Shown here piece after piece: positions 8,184 through 18,900 of a DNA stretch of 64,000 nucleotides. Made by a program: the position numbers and the translations under genes. The first letter of the stretch is position 1. Each line of letters starts with the position of its first letter. Source of the stretch: a virus; IMG/VR virus record IMGVR_UViG_3300042516_003202, one strand, 5' to 3'. The notes beneath the pieces are model-generated. The model saw only the letters and a program-made list of their open reading frames with translations, was not told the DNA's origin and made no database searches.

Positions 8184-9410
8184 TCAGCGTCGGATGACGC
8201 TAACGGCAACATCACCTTTTACAAAGATGGTGTCAACCACGTTTTGTACTGCCCGTGCAGTAGCGCCAGATGCCTTGTCAAAGGTGGGGCAGATCACCAG
8301 TCCATAGGATTTGGTGTATGCCTCCAGATTGCCCGCCTGGAGCGCCCCAGAGCGGATTCCAGCGGCATCCTGGGGGTGTAGGCGCAGAGTACGCCCAACC
8401 GTCTGTCCGATCCCCACAACATCCATAGAGCGCATGAATACTACTGCCTCCAGAGCAGAGATGTTGATGCCTTCTGCCAGAATGCTGTGGTGCAGAACCA
8501 CAAACTTCTTATCGGCATCCTTACCCCACTTGTTGATGGTGTCAAAGAAAACCTCACGGTTCACTTGCTGCCCATCAATAAAGGCACCATGCTTGGAAGT
8601 AATGTGCATCACAGAGTAACCCTGCTCTGCCAATTGATCTGCAAAATCAGTTTCAGAAAGCAAACCGATAATGTGCTTGGTTGCTTTGGCACAGATCAGG
8701 ATCTTGTTGACAGGGTGATCTGCAATCGTTTGAAGCAGATACTCGCAATCACGTTGAGCAATATCCTCACCCTTGATGGAGAGGCGCATCTCCTTCATCA
8801 TCACCTTGGGAGGGATGATGTAACCACCTTCTACCAGTTGAGGAGCAGGAACCTTGGCGATGATCTGCCCGTAGACATCAACATCGTTCATGCCAGGTTT
8901 GCCAACCACAGAAGAGTACTTGGGAGTGGCAGTAAAGAAGTAGCAACGCTTTGCCTCTGAAGAGAAATGCTCTACAGCAGGAAAGAAGTGCCGCTTTACA
9001 GAGTTGTGTGCCTCGTCAAAGTAGATCGTATCTACAGCAATATCTGCCTTGGCAAGTTGCTGCAGAGAGTTGTAGGTGGTGAAGATCAGTTTGTGACCCT
9101 CAACATTCTCACACCAGGCACGAATCATGTTCGGGCGAGTGCTGCTGAAGTGATGAGTTTCACCTGTGTGAATGTGCATCACATGAGCATTTGTGATAAA
9201 CTCAAGATACTCACTGGACAACTGCTCTGCCAGAAGGATGCGGGGTGCCACCACTACGATGGTTTGAGGAGTCTCTTTGAGAAACTCCCGAATAGCATCA
9301 AAAATACCAACGTTGGTTTTACCACCGCCAGTAGGGAAAACACAGATGCCCTTGGCAACCTGGCGCAGGGCATCAAGAGCAATCTGTTGATGAGGGCGAA
9401 GTTGGAACAA
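8184..9410 (-). CDS. superfamily 2 DEAH helicase (ResIII-like)
   Basis: LRPHQ Q-motif, PTGGGKT (I), DEAH (II), TAT (III), QTVGRTLR (VI). TTG start at 9410 after a GGAG RBS; the ORF-track ATG at 9467 lies inside the promoter. Confidence 0.9.
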   Translation of the reverse strand: MFQLRPHQQIALDALRQVAKGICVFPTGGGKTNVGIFDAIREFLKETPQTIVVVAPRILLAEQLSSEYLEFITNAHVMHIHTGETHHFSSTRPNMIRAWCENVEGHKLIFTTYNSLQQLAKADIAVDTIYFDEAHNSVKRHFFPAVEHFSSEAKRCYFFTATPKYSSVVGKPGMNDVDVYGQIIAKVPAPQLVEGGYIIPPKVMMKEMRLSIKGEDIAQRDCEYLLQTIADHPVNKILICAKATKHIIGLLSETDFADQLAEQGYSVMHITSKHGAFIDGQQVNREVFFDTINKWGKDADKKFVVLHHSILAEGINISALEAVVFMRSMDVVGIGQTVGRTLRLHPQDAAGIRSGALQAGNLEAYTKSYGLVICPTFDKASGATARAVQNVVDTIFVKGDVAVSVIRR

Positions 9411-9432
9411 GGTCTCCGTTGCGTATGGGACT

Positions 9433-9476
9433 ATTATAGCAGAAAGGGGTCCCCGAAGGAACCCCATGTGCCAGTT
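9433..9476 (-). promoter_or_regulatory. early promoter cassette: AACTGGCAC motif, UUCG hairpin, extended -10 TGcTATAAT
   Basis: AACTGGCAC atGGGGTTCC-TTCG-GGGACCCC tttc TGC TATAAT; motif 29 nt upstream of the -10. Confidence 0.75.
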
Positions 9477-9491
9477 ATGAAATTGGTCTAA

Positions 9492-10805
9492 TCACTGAAA
9501 CTCATTGTGCTGCTCAATCATGTTTGCTTGTGGCAACCATTTGAAGTCAATAGGCTTCAAAGTTCCCTCATCATGTGCTTTGAGAACACGACGATAGTGT
9601 TTGAGCATACGCTTACGTTCACCTTCCATCAACACTCGGAGTTCATCAATGTTGTTTTCTGTAGGAGTAATACTAACACCCTGACCCTGCTCCAAGAAAG
9701 AATAAGCAGTATAGTTGTTGTTAGGATACTCAAGCTGCTTTTCAAAGATGAAATACCACTTACGGTAGTGATCTGGTTTACGCCCCCAACCAACAGCAAA
9801 AGAAGTTTGAGTTTCGTTCATAGAACTAATACGCTCACCGCAAACACCATTGATGCTAAAAACATCTTTCAAAGTTTTTTGTGCTTTTGAAATGTCGTAT
9901 GGTTCAATAGATACTTTGACACCTTCTTCGCCAAGAATTTCAGCAGCAAAAATCCTTCGGTTGTTTTTGCGAACTTCTTTGTATCGGGTTTTCAGTACAT
10001 CAATCACAACGTCAATGTCTTTTGCAATTTTTCCGTATTGAAAACCTTTTTGGATCATGTACTTTACATCATCCTCTGTACAATCATTCTTTTTTTCCCT
10101 GTTGGGAGCATTGGCGATTGCACCATATTGAAGAAGAGAATATTCATCTTCACCAGAAATGATGGCACACGGAAAATACTTCCAAGGAAGTTCAAAGCGA
10201 TTGTTGCCATCACGAACAATGTACTTAAAAGTAAATTCAGAACCATCTTCGTCAACATAATGAATTGGTTCAGAAAGAACTGATACTGCAGGTTGATAAC
10301 AGCGATAATCGTATTCGCCATCAGCAACTTCTTCAGTGATCTGGTCAATTGTTTGCTGAAAAAGTGCCTGACCAACACGAGTTTGGCATTCAATGTTAAG
10401 TTTTCGAGCAATGCTGTGAGACATTACTTCATCTTTGTGAAGAATTGCCCATTTTTCAAAGGTAATTCCAGGAGATTTGTCATAATATCGCCCGTGCTTT
10501 TCCAACTCTTCCAAATCAAAGATATTTTGGTTTGGATCAATGTATCCTTTAGTTTCAATCAAACAATATGTACCTTCAAGATCCATAGAGTCCCTACAGA
10601 ACATCCGTAAAAGTTGATCTGCCTCAAGTCGTTGAATTGCTGCACGAACAGTTGATCGCTCATCAACTACCTCATTGTAAATTTCATCAATCCTGTTTTG
10701 AACAAGAACTAAATCATAAATTTCTTGAAGAGTAAAAACAACTCCAGGAACAAAATTTTCGCGGAGAGTAAGTAGAACGTGTTCTTTGGTTGAAATCATA
10801 ATCAA
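9492..10805 (-). CDS. winged-helix plus ParB/Srx-like domain protein
   Basis: N-terminal FTLQEIY...TVRAAIQRL...GTY resembles the DpnI-type wH; central QTR...QPAV...YIVRDGNNR resembles ParB/Srx boxes. Confidence 0.55.
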   Translation of the reverse strand: MIMISTKEHVLLTLRENFVPGVVFTLQEIYDLVLVQNRIDEIYNEVVDERSTVRAAIQRLEADQLLRMFCRDSMDLEGTYCLIETKGYIDPNQNIFDLEELEKHGRYYDKSPGITFEKWAILHKDEVMSHSIARKLNIECQTRVGQALFQQTIDQITEEVADGEYDYRCYQPAVSVLSEPIHYVDEDGSEFTFKYIVRDGNNRFELPWKYFPCAIISGEDEYSLLQYGAIANAPNREKKNDCTEDDVKYMIQKGFQYGKIAKDIDVVIDVLKTRYKEVRKNNRRIFAAEILGEEGVKVSIEPYDISKAQKTLKDVFSINGVCGERISSMNETQTSFAVGWGRKPDHYRKWYFIFEKQLEYPNNNYTAYSFLEQGQGVSITPTENNIDELRVLMEGERKRMLKHYRRVLKAHDEGTLKPIDFKWLPQANMIEQHNEFQ

Positions 10806-10821
10806 TTTCGTTTACCTGCTT

Positions 10822-10850
10822 AATGTACGATGAATTCACCGCCATGTCAA
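10822..10850 (-). promoter_or_regulatory. sigma70-type promoter
   Basis: TTGACA-N17-TACATT upstream of 9492-10805. Confidence 0.75.
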
Positions 10851-10862
10851 CCCCCCAACCCA

Positions 10863-11264
10863 TTAGAAAAACTTTTCAATACCGATAAGTTCCCCAAATG
10901 AGTAGTCATACTCCAAGGCATCCGCACACACGTAATGGGGGTGGTCTACAGGAACACCAAGACGAGAGCACAATTCCTTATGATTATCTTCCATCATTTC
11001 AACGGCATAGATCATATGATTCAAAACATGTTCTTCTGTATGATATTCACAAAGCCGATTCTTAAGAGCAATCAAAAAATTACCACATCCAGCAGAATTA
11101 TCAATAAAAGTACTGTTCGGATCTTTTAGTATATCAACAGAAATATCATCAATCATACTCTCAACTAGATCCATAGGAGTAAAGACTTCTTGAGTTTCTT
11201 TAATCCTTTCATCAGATCTTTCAATCTCAGATCCAGTTTCAATATTATGCTTGTTCTTTTTCAT
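10863..11264 (-). CDS. amino-methyltransferase, SAM-binding half (motifs X-I-II-III)
   Basis: QEVFTP (X), FIDNSAGCGNFL (I), YAVE (II), ADAL (III); no NPPY motif. Confidence 0.8.
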   Translation of the reverse strand: MKKNKHNIETGSEIERSDERIKETQEVFTPMDLVESMIDDISVDILKDPNSTFIDNSAGCGNFLIALKNRLCEYHTEEHVLNHMIYAVEMMEDNHKELCSRLGVPVDHPHYVCADALEYDYSFGELIGIEKFF

Positions 11265-11835
11265 TCTTCTCTTTCAAACAATTAGTATAAGTTGAAATTA
11301 GATCGTTTTTACCGAAATGCCTTCTACCATTACAACTAGAAGCAACCTCTCTAAATCTCGTAGCAAATTCTAACAGATTTTCTATCACACTAGAATCTCT
11401 AACCTTTAGAAAATGATGTCCTTTAGCGTAATGTGTAAAGTTTTCTGTTTTAACTCTACCACTGGGTCCAGAACCATATTCACCTACAAAAACATCTGCC
11501 TCAAATCTCCTCTCATAAGGAAGAAATTCAAAGTCAGGATGTTCCCTCATCATAGGAATTTCACCTACACCAATTTGAAATCTTGATGTATTTCTAACTT
11601 CCCAGTATTGTTTAACAGCACTAATACCATTTGGGAAAGTAGAAGGATCTAGATCATCATCTACAACACAGTGAAGGTGTGCCTTAATCTTATTTAAAGA
11701 TGATGGTTTACGAACTGATGTAGGTAAGACTGCACGAATATCATCAGTGATCTCGGCAGTCTTATTAAGAAATTTTATAGCAAGGTTTCCACCCACCCCA
11801 TAAGGTGGATTAATAATAGCTAAAGTAAACTTCAT
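11245..11835 (-). CDS. amino-methyltransferase, catalytic/TRD half (motif IV)
   Basis: Starts with LAIINPPY, later AVLP; no SAM-binding motif I. Confidence 0.75.
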   Translation of the reverse strand: MKFTLAIINPPYGVGGNLAIKFLNKTAEITDDIRAVLPTSVRKPSSLNKIKAHLHCVVDDDLDPSTFPNGISAVKQYWEVRNTSRFQIGVGEIPMMREHPDFEFLPYERRFEADVFVGEYGSGPSGRVKTENFTHYAKGHHFLKVRDSSVIENLLEFATRFREVASSCNGRRHFGKNDLISTYTNCLKEKNEKEQA

Positions 11836-11861
11836 ACATGTCCTTCAAACCTAGCAAAGGT

Positions 11862-11890
11862 ATTCTACTGGGATTTGAGGTTCTTGTCAA
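11862..11890 (-). promoter_or_regulatory. sigma70-type promoter
   Basis: TTGACA-N17-TAGAAT upstream of the methyltransferase pair. Confidence 0.8.
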
Positions 11891-11893
11891 GAC

Positions 11894-14800
11894 CTAGTAC
11901 ATATCATACCAAGTAGTTCCATTGTACATTTGGTGTTTATTTACCGTAGTGTTAAATATGAAAGCTCCGGGACGAGTATGTAATCCTACTCTTTGATCAG
12001 AAGTTATTCCTGGTGGAAGCATAAATGCATATTTTGCAGATTCTCCAGTAGATCCTATGCCAACTCCAGCATAGAAAAAGTCAGCTTTACACGTAGGTTC
12101 ATCAGTTCCTATACCAATAGAACCAGAAGAATCAATTTCAATAGTTGATTCATCTACTATACGTATAGAACCTCCGGAAACGACTTGACCCGATTGGTAT
12201 AAAACTATTCCACCATTTCCAACATCATTAGTATTAACTCCAACAGCAATTGCTGGACTAATAATTCCTCCAGCAAGTCCTCCTCCTTGTGTTATAATAT
12301 GTATTGATGCGTTTGGTGAGGTTGTCCCAATTCCAATACCAGATGCTTCTGTTATACTAACAATACCAGTAATAGATAGTTCGTTAAATGTTGATATTCC
12401 AACTTCGGTGAATACATTTCCGTTTAATTGGGTTCCTTCCGCGAGTCTAAGGGTTGTAATTCCAGTAATAACTGTATTCCCATTAACTCTTAAATTACTA
12501 AATGTGGATACTCCTGATGCAAATAATCCATTACCAACATATAAATCTCGAGAAATTGTTACTCCAGTGCCAGTTGCTCCAATTTTTCCATTTACATATA
12601 AATCATTTCCAATATAGGTATCTGAAGTAATTGTGGATGTTCCAACAACATGCAAATTATGCTGCGGTTCATCTTGATTAATTCCCAGTTTTCCATCATA
12701 AGTTAAAGTCATTATCTCGTTACTGAGATAACTATTATTCCATTTAAATGAACCAGTATTAATACCAGCAACTCCACCACTATGAAGATTAAAATTAAAA
12801 CTTCCTACAGTTCTATTTTCAAAAGTAAAATCAGATCCACCAAAAATTAAACGTCCTTGATTAGATAAACTTGAGAGTATTAATGAAGAATTAGAAGTCT
12901 TAGAATCTATTTTAATAGAAACTGTTGATTGATCAACAACTTCCAATTTACTGGATAAAGATGTTGTAGTTCCAATACCAACGTAACTAGAATCAACATA
13001 TAAAGGTCCAGAATATATTTCATTATCAACTATAAGTTGATCTGATATTCTAACTAAACTGGATGTAGATTGTAATATTAATTCTCCTGCGGCGGTATCA
13101 ATTATATTACCACTACCAGAAACTCCTAATCTAATTTTATTAAAATATGCAGATCCAAAAGCTTTTGAAGAACTACCTACTGATCCATTATTATTGGAGA
13201 TTGGTAAAATAGCAGATCCGACAGTTGCTATACCAATTATATTTAAATTATTTGATTCTAAATTACTATTTACAAATAAAGAATTTGTTACAGTTACAAT
13301 ACCAGAAGAAGATGTTAATTGTAATGTATTAGAATTTCTAGTCCCTATTGAATTTGTTCCGGCAACACCTATTGTAACCTCATTAATGTATGCGTTTTCG
13401 AATGCTGTTGCAGCATATCCAATAGATGATCCTTTATCGGAATCTGGAGAAATATTAATATTTACTATAGAATAATCACTATAAAGATTGGGTGCAGTTA
13501 ATATACCAGAAACATTTAAATTACGCTCAGAAATTAAATCTTTAGAAACTAATACTCTTCCAGTAATTGAGTCTAATGTAAGATTTCCAGATCTAGTGCT
13601 TATAATTCCGGCACCAAATGCTCCAATATTAATATTTGCAATATGGGCATTTGCAAATGAAGTTCCAGCAGATCCTAAGTATGATCCACCATCACTATCT
13701 GGAACAACTGAATCATTGATGATAAGATCAGTTAGTGTAGAGATGCCAGTTACTGATAAATTCCTGTTTACAATAAAGTCTTTTACGACAGATACTTTTC
13801 CAGTATTTGAATCAAGACTTAAATCACCAGATCTCGTACTTACAATTCCTGCAGCGTTTGCGACTCCAATTTGAACTTCATCAATATAAGCTTCTGCCAA
13901 TGATTTAGAACTGGAACCCAAATATCCACTATTATCGTTCGTTGGAATAATACCTGTAGTAATATTAACAAGACCAGATAATGTAGAAATTCCAGTTACC
14001 GAAACATTTCTATTTACGATAAAGTCTTTTACGACAGATACTTTTCCAGTATTGGCATCAAGACTTAAATCACCAGATCTTGTGCTGACAATACCAGCAG
14101 CATTTGTGACTCCAATTTGAACTTCATCAATATATGCTTCGGCAAATGATTTTGTAGAAGACCCTAGATAACCATTATTATCATTTGACGGGATAATTCC
14201 GGTAGTTATATTGACAAGACCAGATAAAGTAGAAATACCAGTTACTGAAAGATTTTGCCCTATGCTAAAATCTCTTACAACAGATACTCTTCTGCTGTTA
14301 GCATCAAGACTTAAATCACCAGATCTTGTACTAACAATACCAGCAGCATTTGCAACACCAATTTGGACTTCATCAATATATGCTTCGGCAAATGATTTTG
14401 TAGAAGATCCTAAACTTGCAGAAAGATCAGTGTTTGGATTTAAACTTCCACTAATATTAATTGAACTGTTAAAGGTAGAAATACCACTAAATGTAGAGTT
14501 TCTAGATACTGAAAGATCTTTAGAAATTGAAACAGTTCCAGTATTTGAATCAAGACTTAAAGCTCCAGATCTTGTACTTACAATTCCTGCGGCGTTTGCA
14601 ACTCCAATTTGGACTTCATCAATATACGCTTCAGCAAATGATTTTGCAGAAGATCCTAGATAACCACTATTATTAGAATCTGGAACTATACCAGTTGCAG
14701 ATGTTACTATGCCTGCTAGATAAGAATTGCCAGAAACATAAAGATTATTTGATACTTCTATTTTTGTTCCTGCAGAACCTAAAAATAAATCTCCAGAATT

Positions 14801-15982
14801 TGTTTCTATTTTATTAGAAACATCATTTATTCTAATATTTCCTGAATGTAGTTTGGAAATAGTTCCAACACCAGAAGCGTTAATATTTGTAGAATTTACA
14901 AATCCTGCGGTAGTTACACCAATATTCGAATATGTTGAATTTAAAGAATTTGTTGTAATAATACCAGAATTAACTTGCGTTAATTGTGATGCGAAAGAAT
15001 TTGTTCTAAAAACATTTAATGTAGTAACAATTCCAGTATTAGTAACTCTAAGATTTGATGTTGTTGTGAATCCAGATGAAAAAATATCATTAGCAGTAAG
15101 AATACCAACAGTAACAATTCCTGATACTGAAATATCACTAGACCAATTAACTCCATTAGATCCATTTGAAACTAAAAACTGACCAGGATTTCCATTACTA
15201 CCTGCAATGGAAACTCTTGCTCCTCCAGAAAATGTTAAATCACTTGAATTAATTTCGAATCCATTTGATGCATAGAATGACCCACCAGTAAATGATGATC
15301 CCGTAACATTTCTGCTGAATAAACCATTACTATTAAAAGTAACTACACCAATATATGCTCTAGTTGCTGTCAGGGTTCCTACTGTTGCGATGCCTGATGG
15401 CAAATTAATGTTATTTGGTAATCTTGCATTATCTAAAGTTCCTGAAGAAATATTAGATGCATTTATGTTGGTAATATTTGTACCACTTCCATCAAAAGAA
15501 CCTGCGGTTATAATTCCAGATGCTCTAATATTTCCAGTAGAATTAATACCAACACCAATTTGTCCAAGTTCAGTTCTTCCCCCTATTTGCAAAGTTTGAG
15601 TTGGAATATTGGTTGCAATTCCAACTCTATTTCTAAGAATATAAGAACTTGTAATTCCAGGCTGATTATAGTCTACCCATTGATTGGTTGGTATTCCATC
15701 TAAATACGAACCGTCTCCATAATATCTCGTCGCACTTATTATTCCAGAGTCGGTCATCGTAATATATGAACCAACCCTCAAATCAACAAAAGAAGCGATT
15801 CCTGAGATAATCATCGCTTTCATGGTTGATAAACCAGAAACAGAGATATCTCCGTATACGTCAAGATTAGTTCTAGGAATAGTCGTTCCTATACCAACAA
15901 GTCCATTAGCATTTACGAAAAAGTTATCCTCATCAACTTGAACACCATTCCTAAAACTAAATGACTTATTATAATTTGCCAT
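11894..15982 (-). CDS. tail fibre / virion structural protein with internal 82-aa repeats
   Basis: 1362 aa; recurring GLVGIGTT and TGISTL fibre motifs; tandem YLGSS.KSFAEAYIDEVQIG repeats. Confidence 0.8.
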   Translation of the reverse strand: MANYNKSFSFRNGVQVDEDNFFVNANGLVGIGTTIPRTNLDVYGDISVSGLSTMKAMIISGIASFVDLRVGSYITMTDSGIISATRYYGDGSYLDGIPTNQWVDYNQPGITSSYILRNRVGIATNIPTQTLQIGGRTELGQIGVGINSTGNIRASGIITAGSFDGSGTNITNINASNISSGTLDNARLPNNINLPSGIATVGTLTATRAYIGVVTFNSNGLFSRNVTGSSFTGGSFYASNGFEINSSDLTFSGGARVSIAGSNGNPGQFLVSNGSNGVNWSSDISVSGIVTVGILTANDIFSSGFTTTSNLRVTNTGIVTTLNVFRTNSFASQLTQVNSGIITTNSLNSTYSNIGVTTAGFVNSTNINASGVGTISKLHSGNIRINDVSNKIETNSGDLFLGSAGTKIEVSNNLYVSGNSYLAGIVTSATGIVPDSNNSGYLGSSAKSFAEAYIDEVQIGVANAAGIVSTRSGALSLDSNTGTVSISKDLSVSRNSTFSGISTFNSSINISGSLNPNTDLSASLGSSTKSFAEAYIDEVQIGVANAAGIVSTRSGDLSLDANSRRVSVVRDFSIGQNLSVTGISTLSGLVNITTGIIPSNDNNGYLGSSTKSFAEAYIDEVQIGVTNAAGIVSTRSGDLSLDANTGKVSVVKDFIVNRNVSVTGISTLSGLVNITTGIIPTNDNSGYLGSSSKSLAEAYIDEVQIGVANAAGIVSTRSGDLSLDSNTGKVSVVKDFIVNRNLSVTGISTLTDLIINDSVVPDSDGGSYLGSAGTSFANAHIANINIGAFGAGIISTRSGNLTLDSITGRVLVSKDLISERNLNVSGILTAPNLYSDYSIVNINISPDSDKGSSIGYAATAFENAYINEVTIGVAGTNSIGTRNSNTLQLTSSSGIVTVTNSLFVNSNLESNNLNIIGIATVGSAILPISNNNGSVGSSSKAFGSAYFNKIRLGVSGSGNIIDTAAGELILQSTSSLVRISDQLIVDNEIYSGPLYVDSSYVGIGTTTSLSSKLEVVDQSTVSIKIDSKTSNSSLILSSLSNQGRLIFGGSDFTFENRTVGSFNFNLHSGGVAGINTGSFKWNNSYLSNEIMTLTYDGKLGINQDEPQHNLHVVGTSTITSDTYIGNDLYVNGKIGATGTGVTISRDLYVGNGLFASGVSTFSNLRVNGNTVITGITTLRLAEGTQLNGNVFTEVGISTFNELSITGIVSITEASGIGIGTTSPNASIHIITQGGGLAGGIISPAIAVGVNTNDVGNGGIVLYQSGQVVSGGSIRIVDESTIEIDSSGSIGIGTDEPTCKADFFYAGVGIGSTGESAKYAFMLPPGITSDQRVGLHTRPGAFIFNTTVNKHQMYNGTTWYDMY
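13130..14720 (-). repeat. about seven tandem 81-85-codon repeats, four spaced exactly 246 nt apart
   Basis: Anchor positions 14638, 14392, 14146, 13900 (246-nt steps), then 13657, 13402 and about 13159. Confidence 0.85.
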
Positions 15983-15999: not shown

Positions 16000-18900
16000 T
16001 TATTTATCTGATAACTTTTGCTCAAGTTTTTCTACCTTATCTGCAAGTTCTTTAATAGCTTCAATAAGTAAAGGAACTATTTTTTCATACTTAACAGTTA
16101 AGTAATCATTATTTGCTGGAGCAGGAGAAACTGCCTCTGGAAGAACTGCTTGAATCTGCTGTGCCGAAACACCAACATGTGTTGTTTCAGTGCTGAAACC
16201 AAGTGTAGCACCAATCTCATTAAAGTTATATGTAAATCCACTGAGAGACAGAACTTTTTCAAGAGCATTTTCAAGTGGTTTGATATTGGTTTTAAGTCTT
16301 TCATCAGAAGCAAATGCAACAATATCTCCAGTAACAGACAACTCGTTTGAAGAAGCATCAAAGTACAAACCACTGTCGCTATAGAAAGACTTATTTCCAC
16401 CATTTGTAGTTTCTGTTAATGCAATACGATATGTTCCACTATCTGAGGAAGAATTCACATAAAGTTTAGTCGCAGTATCAGCATTACCAGTTACATTACC
16501 AGTTACATTACCAGTTAGGTTTCCAGTAACACCTCCACTAGCAGTAATTCTTCCACTAACATTAAGAGTTGATGCTAAAACAACTGCTCCTGCAAGATTT
16601 AAATTTCCACCAACATAAAGATTTTTAGCAACTCCTAAACCACCAGAAACTGTTAATGCACCTGTTGATGTGCTAGATGATTCTGTAGTATTTGAAATTG
16701 CAAGAGTTCCAGATACTGCCAAGTTAGCAATAGTTGTAGTTCCAAGTACAGTAAGATTTCCTGTAGTATAAATTGCACCATCAGTGGTCTGGATATAAGC
16801 TTTTTCAGTATTGTCTGCTCTACGAATAGATAATTTTTGACTATCCCCTCTCAAAATTATAGAAGAATCATATACTGTAGTGGTTCCAGTAACATCCAAA
16901 GCAGATTCAATTCTAACCAAATTGGTAGAAGAATCTAAAATTAAGTTTTGACTATTGTAAGTTGTAATTCTATTATCTTGAGTATCGTCTGCAATTCTAA
17001 TATATCCAATAAATGCTTCAGCAAAAGGTCTTGTAGAAGATCCTAACTTAGTGCCTAAAGAAGCGTATGGTAGAATGTCACTTTCAACGGTTGTTACTCC
17101 TTTAAGATATGATGTTCCATCAACGTTTAAAGTCCCATCAACATCTAAATTATCCTGAACATTTACAGTTCCTGATGTTGAATCAAGTAGTAAGTTTCCA
17201 CTTGAAGTATCAATCTTATTATCTGCAGCAACTCCAATACGAACATCATCAATTGTTGCTCCACCATTAGCATCAAGAAGACCTGTTAATGTTGTTTGGC
17301 CAGTAACAGATAAGGTAGATCCTAAAGTTGTTGCTCCATCAGAATTTAACGTTCCATCAACATCTAAATTATCTTGAACGTTTACAGTTCCTGATGCAGA
17401 ATCTAAAATTAAAGATGTTGAATTTTTTGTATCAATTACGTTTGTTCCAGTAACACCAATTCTAACATTCTTTAATGATCCTCCAGAAACAGAATCAATT
17501 ACTGCATTGAATGTAGCAGTATCTAGTGAAGAATCTCCTAAAACTATGTCACCTTTTAGATTGGTAATTGCATTAACTGTTAAATTAGATTCGAATGTTG
17601 CAGCATCTTTTACTTTTAGAGAATCATAGATATAAACTTCATCTACACCACTGATAAGACGTAATTGAGTTGATGCAGTATCAATTGTATTATCATCAGA
17701 AACTCCAATACGTATATTTTTAATAATTGCACCGCCATTAATGTCTAACAATCCAGCAACTGTTAAGTCGCCGTCAACATTAGCATTAAAATCTATATCT
17801 ATGTTTGCTGCAACTCTAACATTATTGGTATTAGAATCTAAAACTAAATCTCCAGATGCAGTGTCTATAGTTGTTGCTGCAGTAGCACCTATTCTAATTT
17901 CATCAATATATGCTGCAGAGAATTTCTTAGTTGAAGATCCAATAGTAGAGTTTGATGAAGTTGTTGTTGTATGTGGAACCAAGTTTGACTGAATAGCAGT
18001 TTCTCCAGTCAAATATGTTGTTCCATCTACGTTTAGATTATTATTAACATCTAAATCGTCATCAACTATAACAGTACCTGCTGAAGAATCTAGAACTAAA
18101 CTTCCAGATGCAGTATCTATTGTTCTTTCACCAATAACAGCAATTTTAATTTCATCAATATATGCTGCAGAAAATTTCTTAGATGAAGTTCCAATAGTTG
18201 AGTTTAATGAAGATGTTGTTGTATGTGGAACCAAATTTGATTGAAGTGTAGTTTCTCCAGTCAAATATGTTGTTCCGTCTACATTTAAATTGTTGTTAAT
18301 ATCTAAATCATCATCAACTACTACAGTACCTGCAGAAGAGTCTAATGTTAAATTGCCAGATCTAGTATCAATTTCACCTCCTCCACTTGCACCTATTCTA
18401 ATTTCATCAATATATGCTTCGGAGAATGATTTATCTAATGAACCAATGTATGCACCTTCATTTTCATCAGGAAGTAATCCAGTTACAACTGTAGTAATTC
18501 CAAGTAAATTAGTTTGCCCATTAATAGTTAATGCCTGATTAACTATTAAATGATCGTCTACAATAACATTTGTTGATGCGGTTTGTGTTTTTAAAATTAA
18601 ATCACCAGTCCAAGAATTTATTGTTCTATCTTGTATTTCAGTTCCTCCGGGAGTACCTTCAGTTGCAATTCCAATTCCACCGAACCATCCAGATGCCCAA
18701 GGTCTCTCAGCAGATCCAATATAAGCATCTTCAATAGAATCTGGAACAAGACCAGTATTAAATTGAACTTGTCCATTAAATGTTGCGGTTCCTGAAATAC
18801 TTACATTACCACCAATATTAACATTCTTTGCAATACCAAAACCACCTCTAGCAATAACAGATCCTGTAGTAGTGCTTGTCGAATCTGTAGTATTATTTAA

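What the first reader, a model, noticed from the sequence alone, without database searches (positions are those of the whole stretch)
8184..11890. Candidate methylation-based system: split MTase, wH-ParB protein and SF2 helicase
Seen: four adjacent co-oriented genes at the junction between the tail module and the early array, with separate promoters (11862-11890, 10822-10850, 9433-9476). A putative writer, reader-effector and ATP motor echo restriction-modification architecture, but no canonical nuclease is visible. Inference: a self/non-self DNA discrimination, anti-restriction or phage-versus-phage exclusion module.
Basis: inference. Interest (0 to 1): 0.75.

Follow-up and report, generated by a model that had tools for sequence, protein, structure and literature searches.

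The report
Split methylase with swappable ParB-like partner
A marine cyanophage carries a DNA methylase made from two separate genes in swapped order, always followed by a new kind of DNA-binding protein whose N-terminal domain resembles a known methyl-adenine-reading domain; the link between these two looks functional, while the neighbouring helicase is probably only a neighbour.

Summary
The four minus-strand genes are real. The record is a P-SSM2-like cyanomyovirus contig of 178 kb, 83% complete.

- **g1 + g2 (11835-11245, 11264-10863):** one small gamma-type amino-DNA methylase, cut between motifs III and IV. The motif IV half is encoded first. All 51 related junctions examined are split and none is fused.
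- **g3 (10799-9492):** a DpnI-type winged helix, then a ParB/Srx-fold domain, then a C-terminal domain with no fold match.
  - Every g3 relative found sits beside a DNA methylase gene, and these methylases belong to four different families.
  - In other phage contigs g3 lies between a PD-(D/E)XK nuclease gene and a beta-class methylase.
  - In otherwise collinear contigs (77-87% DNA identity) exactly the g3 ORF is replaced by the P-SSM2 gp038 type. That is an unrelated ParB-like protein carrying a homologous winged helix at its other end.
- **g4 (9410/9467-8184):** an SF2 helicase found in 458 phage records, mostly without these partners. It has its own upstream signals and an anomalous GC content (50% against about 35%).

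Verdict: the writer plus ParB-like partner module is well supported by synteny. Membership of the helicase and any self/non-self discrimination remain unproven, and no nuclease is visible in the window. First-reader notes on this same stretch exist in the scan; nothing was found on other DNA.

The parts
11862..11890 (-). Sigma-70-like promoter match (TTGACA-17-TAGAAT) in the gap between the fibre gene and g1
   Evidence: 11 of 12 consensus positions. A consensus match only; function not shown.
11245..11835 (-). g1: catalytic/target-recognition half of the split amino-DNA methylase (motif IV NPPY at residues 9-12 through to the C-terminus), 196 aa
   Evidence: phrog_5172, E 3e-61; PADLOC MTase_II, E 1.9e-6; aligns to residues 80-264 of the 264-aa methylase of E. 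coli phage nieznany, E 9e-16; the only ORF in the 178-kb record with a [DNS]PP[YFW] motif.
10863..11264 (-). g2: AdoMet-binding half (motifs X, I, II, III), 133 aa. Overlaps g1 by 20 nt in the +1 frame.
   Evidence: N6_Mtase, E 0.0028, profile positions 21-89; phrog_4376, E 2e-73; phrog_21201 'DNA methyltransferase', E 2e-14; CamA residues 29-80.
10822..10850 (-). Sigma-70-like promoter match (TTGACA-17-TACATT) upstream of g3. It is also the left boundary of the swappable slot.
   Evidence: DNA homology to gp038-type contigs ends at 10820-10845.
9492..10799 (-). g3: DpnI-type winged helix (residues 1-85), ParB/Srx-fold domain with helical extension (about 112-297), and a C-terminal alpha/beta domain without a fold match (about 300-437)
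   Evidence: pLDDT 87.6; DpnI winged helix Z 9.9; pNOB8 ParB-N Z 8.6; PadC 8.2; KorB 7.3.
9433..9465 (-). GC-rich hairpin (9465-9446) followed by TATAAT (9438-9433): a composite terminator/promoter-like element between g3 and g4, and the right boundary of the slot
   Evidence: -20.6 kcal/mol, z -3.1; homology to gp038-type contigs resumes at 9486-9490. Resembles the PeSL elements of T4-type phages (PMC4122927).
8184..9467 (-). g4: SF2 helicase (ResIII + Helicase_C), 427 aa as listed; the likely start is TTG 9410. GC 50%, GC3 54%.
   Evidence: phrog_16, E 5e-56; 51% identity to P-SSM2 gp039.

Best explanation
**The methylase (shown by sequence).** g1 and g2 are the two subunits of one amino (most likely N6-adenine) DNA methylase. 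It is the phage's only detectable enzyme of this kind. g2 supplies the AdoMet pocket (motifs X to III). g1 supplies the catalytic NPPY loop and target recognition. The 14-20 nt overlap suggests translational coupling (inferred).

**g3 (linkage shown, action inferred).** g3 is a methylation-linked DNA-binding protein. It has a ParB/Srx-type nucleotide-switch domain (RDGNNR, where ParB has its GxxR phosphate motif) and a DpnI-type winged helix, the fold that reads fully methylated ApT sites in DpnI. I infer that it acts on phage DNA together with the methylase as a loader/clamp or reader of the mark. The precedents are DpdB, a ParB-like ATPase needed by the DNA-modifying enzyme DpdA, and the many ParB-methylase fusions of phages. 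I do not think it is a nuclease.

**The slot (shown).** The slot between the methylase and the helicase is bounded by conserved regulatory elements and is exchangeable. The g3 type and the P-SSM2 gp038 type are functional alternatives.

**g4 (inferred).** g4 is a conserved cyanomyovirus helicase that marks this variable region. It is probably a positional neighbour with its own transcription signals.
For: **Split methylase**
- g1 aligns with the whole post-motif-IV part of a 264-aa single-chain phage methylase. g2's motif I aligns with that protein's N-terminal motif I.
- 51 of 51 junctions are split, with overlaps of 4-83 nt and varied sequence.
- No other [DNS]PP[YFW] ORF exists in the record.

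**g3 fold**
- AF2 model, pLDDT 87.6.
- The DpnI winged helix is the top hit, Z 9.9. ParB-family hits reach Z 7.3-8.6, with Foldseek probabilities of 0.85-0.99.
- Pfam DpnI_C is matched by 10 of 33 family members. A distant member reaches 23.2 bits against a cut-off of 23.
- ParB_N is weakly matched in another member.

**Linkage to methylases**
- g3 relatives are adjacent to the split gamma type, to beta N6_N4, to D12 Dam or to an Eco57I-like methylase in all 17 IMG/VR loci, in ACG-2014i and in AG-345-F15.

**Analogue in the same slot**
- The gp038 family has a homologous winged helix at the other terminus (hhalign probability 96.9%, E 2e-10).
- Its nearest ESM-Atlas clusters are ParB/Srx-type.
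- It sits in the same slot in 52 of 53 loci.
- The swap boundaries are precise.

**Precedents**
- PMC10164549 (DpdB), PMC4117772 and PMC11037411 (DpnI-type winged helices as m6A sensors), PMC3089641 (ParB-methylase fusions in prophage).

**Helicase independence**
-; GC anomaly.
Against: - No biochemical datum exists for any of these proteins.
- The window's own g3 gives no significant Pfam hit. The winged-helix Z of 9.9 is within 1 of generic winged helices.
- Short forms of both slot families lack the winged helix, so reading of methylation cannot be the core function.
- A methylase helper that works with four unrelated methylase families would need a partner-independent mode of action.
- In other phages g3 lies between a nuclease and a methylase, which fits a restriction role as well.
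- The helicase is adjacent (under 1.3 kb) to a slot protein in about 59 of 64 loci. Paralogous ResIII helicases sit beside g2-type methylases and nucleases in S-CAM7, Bellamy and ACG-2014f. A functional tie is therefore not excluded.
- Most loci come from one P-SSM2-like lineage, so the counts are not independent.
Confidence: 0.45

Rival explanations
1. All four genes form one restriction-modification-like system. The split methylase marks phage DNA, g3 reads the mark and acts as effector (its ParB-like domain nicking or clamping), and the ResIII helicase is the ATP motor. The system would then resemble Type III or Type ISP enzymes broken into separate proteins and be used against host DNA or co-infecting phages.
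For: - The g1-g2-[ParB-like]-helicase order is kept in about 58 contigs, with helicase identity down to 51%.
- g4 carries the ResIII domain.
- Paralogous helicases (30-35% identity) lie next to a methylase, an Mrr-like PD-(D/E)XK protein and g2 in ACG-2014f and Bellamy. A 704-aa weak-ResIII protein precedes a split methylase in S-CAM7.
- g3 relatives sit beside PD-(D/E)XK nuclease genes in other phages.
Against: - No nuclease fold was found in the window. The g3 C-terminal domain has no match (best Z 5.6), and no His-Me or PD-(D/E)XK motif is conserved.
- The helicase is present in 458 records, mostly without the partners. It follows a terminator-like hairpin, has its own -10 element and has a different base composition.
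- g1/g2 occur far from it in four lineages.
Confidence: 0.22
2. This is counter-defence only. The methylase protects phage DNA from host restriction enzymes. g3 binds the resulting m6A sites and shields them from host m6A-dependent (DpnI-like, Type IV) nucleases.
For: - Explains why a DpnI-type winged helix is always linked to a methylase, whereas the nuclease-fused winged helices of bacteria mostly stand alone (87% have no methylase nearby; PMC11037411).
- No nuclease is needed.
- A fast-evolving, swappable slot is typical of arms-race genes.
Against: - Forms without the winged helix keep the methylase linkage.
- Stoichiometric coating of every site seems costly.
- Nothing is known about Type IV m6A restriction in the hosts.
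- Does not explain g3's place between a nuclease and a methylase in other phages.
Confidence: 0.13
3. There is no joint function. Unrelated accessory genes have accumulated in a hyperplastic region next to a conserved helicase, g3 is a transcription regulator or partition-like protein, and the synteny reflects common descent.
For: - The region is bounded by promoter/stem-loop elements of the kind that shuffle genes in T4-type phages (PMC2839356, PMC4122927).
- Most loci belong to one lineage.
- The genes have separate promoter-like sites.
Against: - g3 relatives at 25-50% identity, in different phage lineages, are still next to methylases of four unrelated families.
- Two unrelated ParB-like families with a homologous winged helix occupy the same slot.
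Confidence: 0.12

Closest known systems
Small gamma-type phage N6-adenine methylases (e.g. the 264-aa protein of Escherichia phage nieznany/phAPEC8 group; PHROG 5172)
   Same: Same motif order X-I-II-III-IV once g2 is placed before g1. g1 aligns from motif IV to the end (26% identity, E 9e-16).
   Different: Here the enzyme is cut between motifs III and IV into two ORFs, and the motif IV half is encoded first. This holds at all 51 junctions.
Natural two-subunit cytosine-5 methylases M.AquI and M.EcoHK31I (named in PMC3404938 and PMC2836561; further details from my own knowledge)
   Same: One methylase fold assembled from two polypeptides encoded by overlapping or adjacent genes.
   Different: Those are C5 enzymes. 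This is an amino-methylase with a different split point and inverted gene order. Assembly has not been shown here.
DpnI and other winged-helix fusion enzymes that sense m6A (PMC4117772, PMC11037411)
   Same: The N-terminal winged helix of g3 is closest in fold to the DpnI C-terminal domain. Family members match Pfam DpnI_C.
   Different: The partners listed in that survey are PD-(D/E)XK, PUA-HNH, HNH, GIY-YIG, PLD and McrB-like NTPase, and they mostly have no methylase nearby. Here the partner is a ParB/Srx domain and a methylase is always adjacent.
DpdB of the Dpd 7-deazaguanine system, and ParB-methylase fusion proteins of phages and prophages (PMC10164549, PMC3089641)
   Same: A ParB-fold nucleotide-binding protein coupled to a DNA-modifying enzyme. 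In most g3 loci the gene overlaps a beta-class PF01555 methylase, the type usually fused to ParB domains.
   Different: g3 is a separate gene with no detectable sequence relation to DpdB. It has an extra winged helix and a C-terminal domain without a fold match. ATPase or CTPase activity is untested.
Type III / Type ISP restriction-modification (Res helicase plus Mod methylase)
   Same: A ResIII-type SF2 helicase next to an amino-methylase.
   Different: No nuclease domain in the helicase or elsewhere in the window. The helicase is distributed independently of the methylase.

Membership tests
Amino (N6-adenine/N4-cytosine) DNA methyltransferase, gamma arrangement | Catalytic motif IV (D/N/S)PP(Y/F/W) | tested here: met
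   NPPY at g1 residues 9-12. Invariant N9, P11 and G13 in the alignment of g1 relatives.
Amino (N6-adenine/N4-cytosine) DNA methyltransferase, gamma arrangement | AdoMet-binding motifs X, I (glycine-rich loop), II and III | tested here: met
   Found in g2, not g1: FTP (motif X), DNSAGCGNF (I), YAVEM (II), CADAL (III). Supported by N6_Mtase profile positions 21-89, the CamA N-terminus and the motif I alignment to the nieznany methylase.
Amino (N6-adenine/N4-cytosine) DNA methyltransferase, gamma arrangement | All motifs on one polypeptide in the order X-I-II-III-IV-... | tested here: not met
   Two ORFs in different frames with the motif IV half upstream. 51 of 51 related junctions are split.
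Amino (N6-adenine/N4-cytosine) DNA methyltransferase, gamma arrangement | Score above a curated family threshold | tested here: not met
   g2 scores 17.5 bits on N6_Mtase against a cut-off of 20.4. g1 has no Pfam or NCBIfam hit. Only PADLOC MTase_II (E 1.9e-6) and PHROG matches were found.
Amino (N6-adenine/N4-cytosine) DNA methyltransferase, gamma arrangement | Methyl transfer to DNA, and the target base and motif | not testable with these tools
   Needs expression and methylome sequencing.
ParB/Srx fold (ParB N-terminal domain superfamily) | Fold similarity over the domain | tested here: met
   pNOB8 ParB-N Z 8.6 (153 residues aligned), PadC Z 8.2, KorB Z 7.3. Foldseek gives Noc, KorB, ParB and Srx at probability 0.85-0.99 but E of 2e-3 or weaker. 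The Z values are moderate.
ParB/Srx fold (ParB N-terminal domain superfamily) | Sequence match to Pfam ParB_N, and the GxxR phosphate motif | tested here: inconclusive
   The window protein has no hit. A distant family member hits ParB_N at E 0.0075, below the cut-off. The motif RDGNNR, with invariant R198, N202 and R203, lies where GxxR is expected; this placement is read by eye.
ParB/Srx fold (ParB N-terminal domain superfamily) | CTP/ATP binding and hydrolysis, clamp formation | not testable with these tools
   Biochemical assay needed.
DpnI_C winged helix (PF17726), m6A-sensing type | Fold and sequence match to the DpnI C-terminal domain | tested here: inconclusive
   Top structural hit is 4esj_A residues 182-254, Z 9.9, rmsd 2.6 over 72 residues, but it is tied within 1 Z unit with generic winged helices. 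10 of 33 family members match below threshold (best E 3e-4). One distant member reaches 23.2 bits against a cut-off of 23. The window protein itself has no hit.
DpnI_C winged helix (PF17726), m6A-sensing type | Preferential binding of fully methylated ApT/GATC DNA | not testable with these tools
   Binding assay needed. The pocket residues were not compared.
SF2 helicase (ResIII + Helicase_C) | Both RecA-like domains above the Pfam thresholds | tested here: met
   ResIII 67.5 bits (cut-off 22.5), DEAD 53.3, Helicase_C 25.0 (cut-off 23.5).
T4 UvsW | Sequence relation to UvsW | tested here: inconclusive
   One record labels a homologue 'UvsW'. The PDB sequence search returns only weak MDA5 and XPB matches and no UvsW chain.
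Type I/III/ISP restriction-modification | A nuclease domain linked to the motor, and co-inheritance of motor and methylase | tested here: not met
   No nuclease family hit for any of the four proteins in Pfam, NCBIfam or PADLOC. The helicase is in 458 records against 66 for g2 and 8 for g3, and it stands alone in five sampled phages.
GmrSD-type Type IV enzymes (DUF262 ParB-like domain + DUF1524 His-Me nuclease) | C-terminal His-Me/HNH nuclease domain | tested here: inconclusive
   The C-terminal domain was modelled alone (pLDDT 78.6) and has no match above Z 5.6. No conserved His or Cys is present among the invariant residues.

The most novel reading that the evidence does not exclude
Abundant marine cyanophages carry a non-destructive epigenetic self-recognition module. 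A two-piece m6A writer marks phage DNA. A nucleotide-gated ParB-like clamp with a DpnI-type methyl reader then loads at those marks. It would either shield them from host m6A-dependent restriction or direct the flanking helicase and phage nucleases away from self DNA. This would be a reader-clamp class not described among restriction-modification or anti-restriction systems.
Probability: 0.2. Interest if true: 0.85.

Novelty: new variant of a known kind. Interest (0 to 1): 0.62.

Why it matters
T4-like cyanophages are among the most abundant viruses in the ocean, and their DNA methylation is usually explained by simple orphan Dam-type enzymes. Three points follow from this locus.

1. A naturally split, order-permuted amino-methylase is conserved at every one of 51 related junctions. 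It offers a natural model for assembling a methylase from two subunits.
2. g3 belongs to a narrow protein family: only 47 clusters among 1.84 billion representative proteins. It joins a methyl-adenine-sensor type of winged helix to a ParB-like nucleotide switch, and it is found only beside methylase genes.
3. The slot holding g3 is exchanged between otherwise near-identical phages. That pattern is typical of genes under conflict-driven selection.

If g3 helps or reads methylation, it would give a function to the many unexplained ParB-methylase pairings in phages.

Tried and rejected
Contexts were taken from IMG/VR loci and phage records instead.
- **Nuclease in g3.** The C-terminal domain was modelled alone and searched with VIA-align and Foldseek. 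Only generic alpha/beta hits came back (best Z 5.6; Foldseek E above 0.5).
- **g4 as UvsW.** The PDB sequence search gives no support.
- **Programmed frameshift fusing g1 and g2.** Considered, because g2 lies in the +1 frame and the overlap is A-rich. The junction sequences and overlap lengths vary (4-83 nt) and no fused form was found in 51 loci. I therefore prefer translational coupling, but a frameshift is not excluded.
- **'Slot hypothesis'.** This was the idea that the gene just upstream of g4 is ParB-like in all cyanomyoviruses (S-T4 gp029, SynMITS9220M01 gp054 with its 'GGDGNHT' motif, S-SM2 gp067). Profile comparisons gave probabilities below 1% and Pfam gave nothing. Unsupported.
- **ParB domains of g3 and gp038.** hhalign finds homology only in the winged helix. 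PDB profile searches with both families were empty.
- **Other amino-methylases in the record.** None was found by motif scan, but the record is only 83% complete.
- **Literature.** Searches on cyanophage restriction-modification and on ParB-methylase pairs turned up no description of this module.
- **Megablast of the region** against phage records found only one 107-nt match, inside the helicase.

Full report
**Setting**

The window lies in an IMG/VR virus record of 178,172 bp, estimated 83% complete. Its closest cultured relatives are Prochlorococcus phages P-SSM2 and P-SSM5 (Kyanoviridae, Salacisavirus), at about 77-79% amino-acid identity for g1 and g2.

All genes in the region run on the minus strand. 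A 1362-aa fibre-like gene (11894-15982) comes first. It is followed by g1 (11835-11245, 196 aa), g2 (11264-10863, 133 aa), g3 (10805/10799-9492, 437/435 aa) and g4 (9467/9410-8184, 427/408 aa). An array of small ORFs comes next.

**Observation**

The ORFs are real. P-SSM2 has the same order in genes 036-037-038-039, and about 58 IMG/VR contigs share it.

- The regional count of promoter-like sites does not exceed shuffles.
- The third 'promoter' is a GC-rich hairpin (9465-9446; -20.6 kcal/mol, z -3.1) followed by TATAAT (9438-9433).
- The listed ATG of g4 lies inside that hairpin, and homologues align only from residue 18-23 onward. TTG 9410, preceded by GGAG, is therefore the likelier start (inference).

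**The methylase**

g1 begins eight residues before NPPY (motif IV) and has no AdoMet loop. g2 carries FTP (motif X), DNSAGCGNF (I), YAVEM (II) and CADAL (III), and then stops.

- Family matches are modest but consistent. g1 matches PADLOC MTase_II at E 1.9e-6, at mid-profile positions. g2 matches the N-terminal part of N6_Mtase (E 0.0028), PHROG 21201 'DNA methyltransferase' (E 2e-14), and CamA residues 29-80.
- A single-chain relative exists, the 264-aa methylase of Escherichia phage nieznany. Its first 79 residues hold motifs X to III, and its motif I aligns with that of g2. g1 aligns with its residues 80-264 (E 9e-16).
- So g2 followed by g1 reproduces a small gamma-type enzyme, cut between motifs III and IV, with the gene order inverted.
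- In 51 related junctions the two ORFs are always separate and never fused. Overlaps range from 4 to 83 nt (33 cases of 14 nt), with g2 in the +1 frame in 50 of them and with varied sequences.
- The split is therefore ancestral and maintained. That argues for a two-subunit enzyme, probably translationally coupled (inference).
- g1 is the only ORF of 60 aa or more in the record with a [DNS]PP[YFW] motif.
- Some relatives (L008, L009, S-SKS1) have a g1 with a 250-aa N-terminal extension and are still followed by g2. This is not explained.

**The third gene**

Pfam, NCBIfam and PDB sequence searches give nothing significant for the window protein.

*Family size.* It is a narrow marine family: 62 clusters at 90% identity, and only 47 representatives at E 1e-3 or better among 1.84 billion.

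*Fold.* An AF2 model built on 33 sequences has pLDDT 87.6.

| Region of g3 | Best matches |
|---|---|
| Residues 1-85 | Winged helix; best match the C-terminal domain of DpnI (Z 9.9, rmsd 2.6, 72 residues), about 1 Z unit above generic winged helices |
| Residues 112-297 | ParB N-domains: pNOB8 ParB Z 8.6, PadC 8.2, KorB 7.3; Foldseek Noc/KorB/ParB/Srx at probability 0.85-0.99 |
| Residues 296-437, modelled alone (pLDDT 78.6) | No fold match (best Z 5.6; Foldseek E above 0.5) |

*Sequence support from relatives.*
- 10 of 33 members match Pfam DpnI_C below threshold.
- A distant member reaches 23.2 bits against a cut-off of 23.
- Another member touches ParB_N at E 0.0075.
- The invariant RDGNNR stretch lies where ParB has its GxxR phosphate motif (placement read by eye).
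- Shorter family members (about 346-370 aa) lack the winged helix.

**Comparative genomics of g3**

The 17 IMG/VR loci with a g3 relative fall into these groups:

| Loci | Arrangement |
|---|---|
| L005, L007, L008, L009 (and L006, which is cut upstream and shows only g2-g3-helicase) | g1-g2-g3-helicase, as in the window |
| L010-L017 and L019-L021 | A conserved 177-aa ORF with a textbook PD...D-I-E-C-K motif, then g3, then an overlapping beta-class PF01555 methylase; in L010-L014 and L016-L017 the g4-type helicase lies about 1 kb upstream |
| L018 | A different small PD-ExK-like ORF, then g3, then a D12 Dam-type methylase |

- In Synechococcus phage ACG-2014i, g3 lies between a gene annotated as a type II restriction endonuclease and an Eco57I-like methylase.
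- Marine virus AG-345-F15 has the same nuclease-g3-methylase triad. Its nuclease and methylase are 74-79% identical to the L010 type, but its g3 is only 27% identical to the window's.
- In one contig (L084) that nuclease and methylase are directly adjacent with no g3 between them. g3 is therefore an optional insert in a conventional pair.
- The one constant partner of g3 across all contexts is a DNA methylase, of four unrelated families.

**A second family in the same slot**

P-SSM2 gp038 occupies the g3 position but is not detectably orthologous (BLASTP E 0.017).

- Profile comparison shows that its C-terminal 75 residues are homologous to the N-terminal winged helix of g3 (probability 96.9%, E 2e-10).
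- 17 of 31 members of the gp038 family match DpnI_C (best E 1.8e-5).
- Its N-terminal part carries the invariant PPIVL...LVNGNHRW signature.
- Its nearest ESM-Atlas clusters are 'ParB/Sulfiredoxin family', ParB_N, DUF6551 and GmrSD_N, at scores of 0.93-0.95 (a lead, not proof).
- Of 53 IMG/VR loci with this family, 52 show g1-g2-gp038-type-helicase wherever the flanks exist.
- DNA comparison of the window with four such contigs shows collinear homology over g1 and g2 (12035 to about 10820, 77-79%) and over the hairpin plus g4 (9490 to 8197, 80-87%). The break falls exactly on the g3 ORF.
- So the slot is bounded by the g3 promoter match on one side and the hairpin/TATAAT element on the other. 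It holds either of two non-orthologous ParB-like proteins with a shared winged helix.
- These composite elements resemble the promoter/stem-loop cassettes that mediate gene shuffling in T4-type phages (PMC2839356, PMC4122927).

**The helicase**

g4 is an SF2 helicase with both domains above the Pfam thresholds and no nuclease domain. It is not recognisably UvsW.

*Evidence that it is independent of the methylase and g3*
- tblastn finds it in 458 phage records. This compares with 66 records for g2, 128 for g1 (100 of them coliphage single-chain methylases), 8 for g3 and 5 for gp038.
- It has no methylase or nuclease neighbours in ACG-2014f, S-SCSM1, Sf-FS3, S-SCSM2R and S-SKS1.
- g1/g2 lie away from it in S-CAM7, S-SKS1, ACG-2014f and Bellamy.
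- Its GC content (50%, GC3 54%) stands far above that of its neighbours (33-38%). The same holds in related contigs, but not in P-SSM2. That suggests a separate history.

*Evidence against dismissing it*
- It is within about 1.3 kb of a slot protein in most loci.
- Paralogues at 30-35% identity sit beside a methylase, an Mrr-like PD-(D/E)XK protein and g2 in ACG-2014f and Bellamy.
- S-CAM7 has a 704-aa weak-ResIII protein, then a methylase half, then a g2 paralogue, all as overlapping genes.
- In S-SM2 an MjaI-type restriction enzyme gene lies two genes upstream of the helicase.

**Mechanism**

*Shown*
- The split methylase architecture.
- The folds of g3.
- The strict methylase linkage of g3.
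- The cassette swap.

*Inferred*
- g1 and g2 assemble into the phage's methylase.
- g3 is a nucleotide-gated DNA-binding partner that acts with, or reads the product of, the methylase. The winged helix would be an optional methyl-sensing add-on.
- Precedents are DpdB, a ParB-like ATPase required for DNA modification by DpdA (PMC10164549); ParB-methylase fusions (PMC3089641); and DpnI-type winged helices as sensors of fully methylated ApT (PMC4117772, PMC11037411).
- The survey in PMC11037411 lists nuclease partners and McrB-like NTPase partners for such winged helices, and 87% of them have no methylase nearby. The ParB partner and the obligate methylase linkage seen here are therefore a different arrangement.
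- A restriction-like role, a shielding role against host m6A-dependent enzymes, and mere co-location remain open. They are listed as rivals.

**Verdict**

On novelty:
- The split, order-permuted amino-methylase and the winged-helix/ParB family are new variants of known kinds.
- I found no description of either in the literature searched.
- Earlier notes in this scan on the same stretch are first-reader notes that say the same thing. They are not independent evidence.

Noticed in passing
window 8184-9467: The helicase gene has 50% GC (GC3 54%) against 33-38% for its neighbours (GC3 13-30%). The same holds in related contigs L005 and L007-L010, but not in P-SSM2 (36%). This suggests a separate origin or repeated allele exchange for this gene.
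   Followed up: partly
L010:3228-5952, L012:5402-8146, L088:3431-6246 and similar: Three-gene cassettes in other cyanophage contigs: a 177-aa protein with a clear PD...DIECK nuclease motif, a g3 relative, and an overlapping beta-class N6_N4 methylase. In L084 the nuclease and methylase are adjacent with no g3 between them.
   Followed up: partly
L008:4187-5545, L009:4194-5561, L004:8659-10038 (S-SKS1): Long forms of g1 (about 455 aa) have a 250-aa N-terminal extension that seems to include an atypical motif I region (DAFGHF). They are nevertheless followed by a g2 gene. Why both are kept is unexplained.
   Followed up: no
L028:6671-10222 (S-CAM7), L025:6513-10208 (Bellamy), L022:5001-8948 (ACG-2014f): Other modules built around a g2 paralogue. 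In S-CAM7: a 704-aa weak-ResIII protein, a methylase half and g2. In Bellamy and ACG-2014f: a helicase paralogue of g4, an Eco57I-like methylase, an Mrr-like PD-(D/E)XK protein and g2. These look like Type III-like systems in pieces.
   Followed up: partly
window 9410-9467: The listed ATG start of the helicase lies inside a terminator-like hairpin. TTG 9410 after GGAG fits the homologue alignments better.
   Followed up: partly
window 11894-15982 and 16891-18678: The 1362-aa fibre-like protein contains several internal repeats of about 90-100 residues. It has a partial paralogue just upstream (33% identity over 650 residues).
   Followed up: no
L033:2358-3383 (SynMITS9220M01 gp054), L026:2938-3978 (S-T4 gp029), L024:2754-3893 (S-SM2 gp067): In phages without g3, the gene just upstream of the helicase is an unrelated 340-380-aa protein of unknown function. 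One family has an invariant GGDGNHT motif reminiscent of ParB, but profile comparisons give no support.
   Followed up: yes
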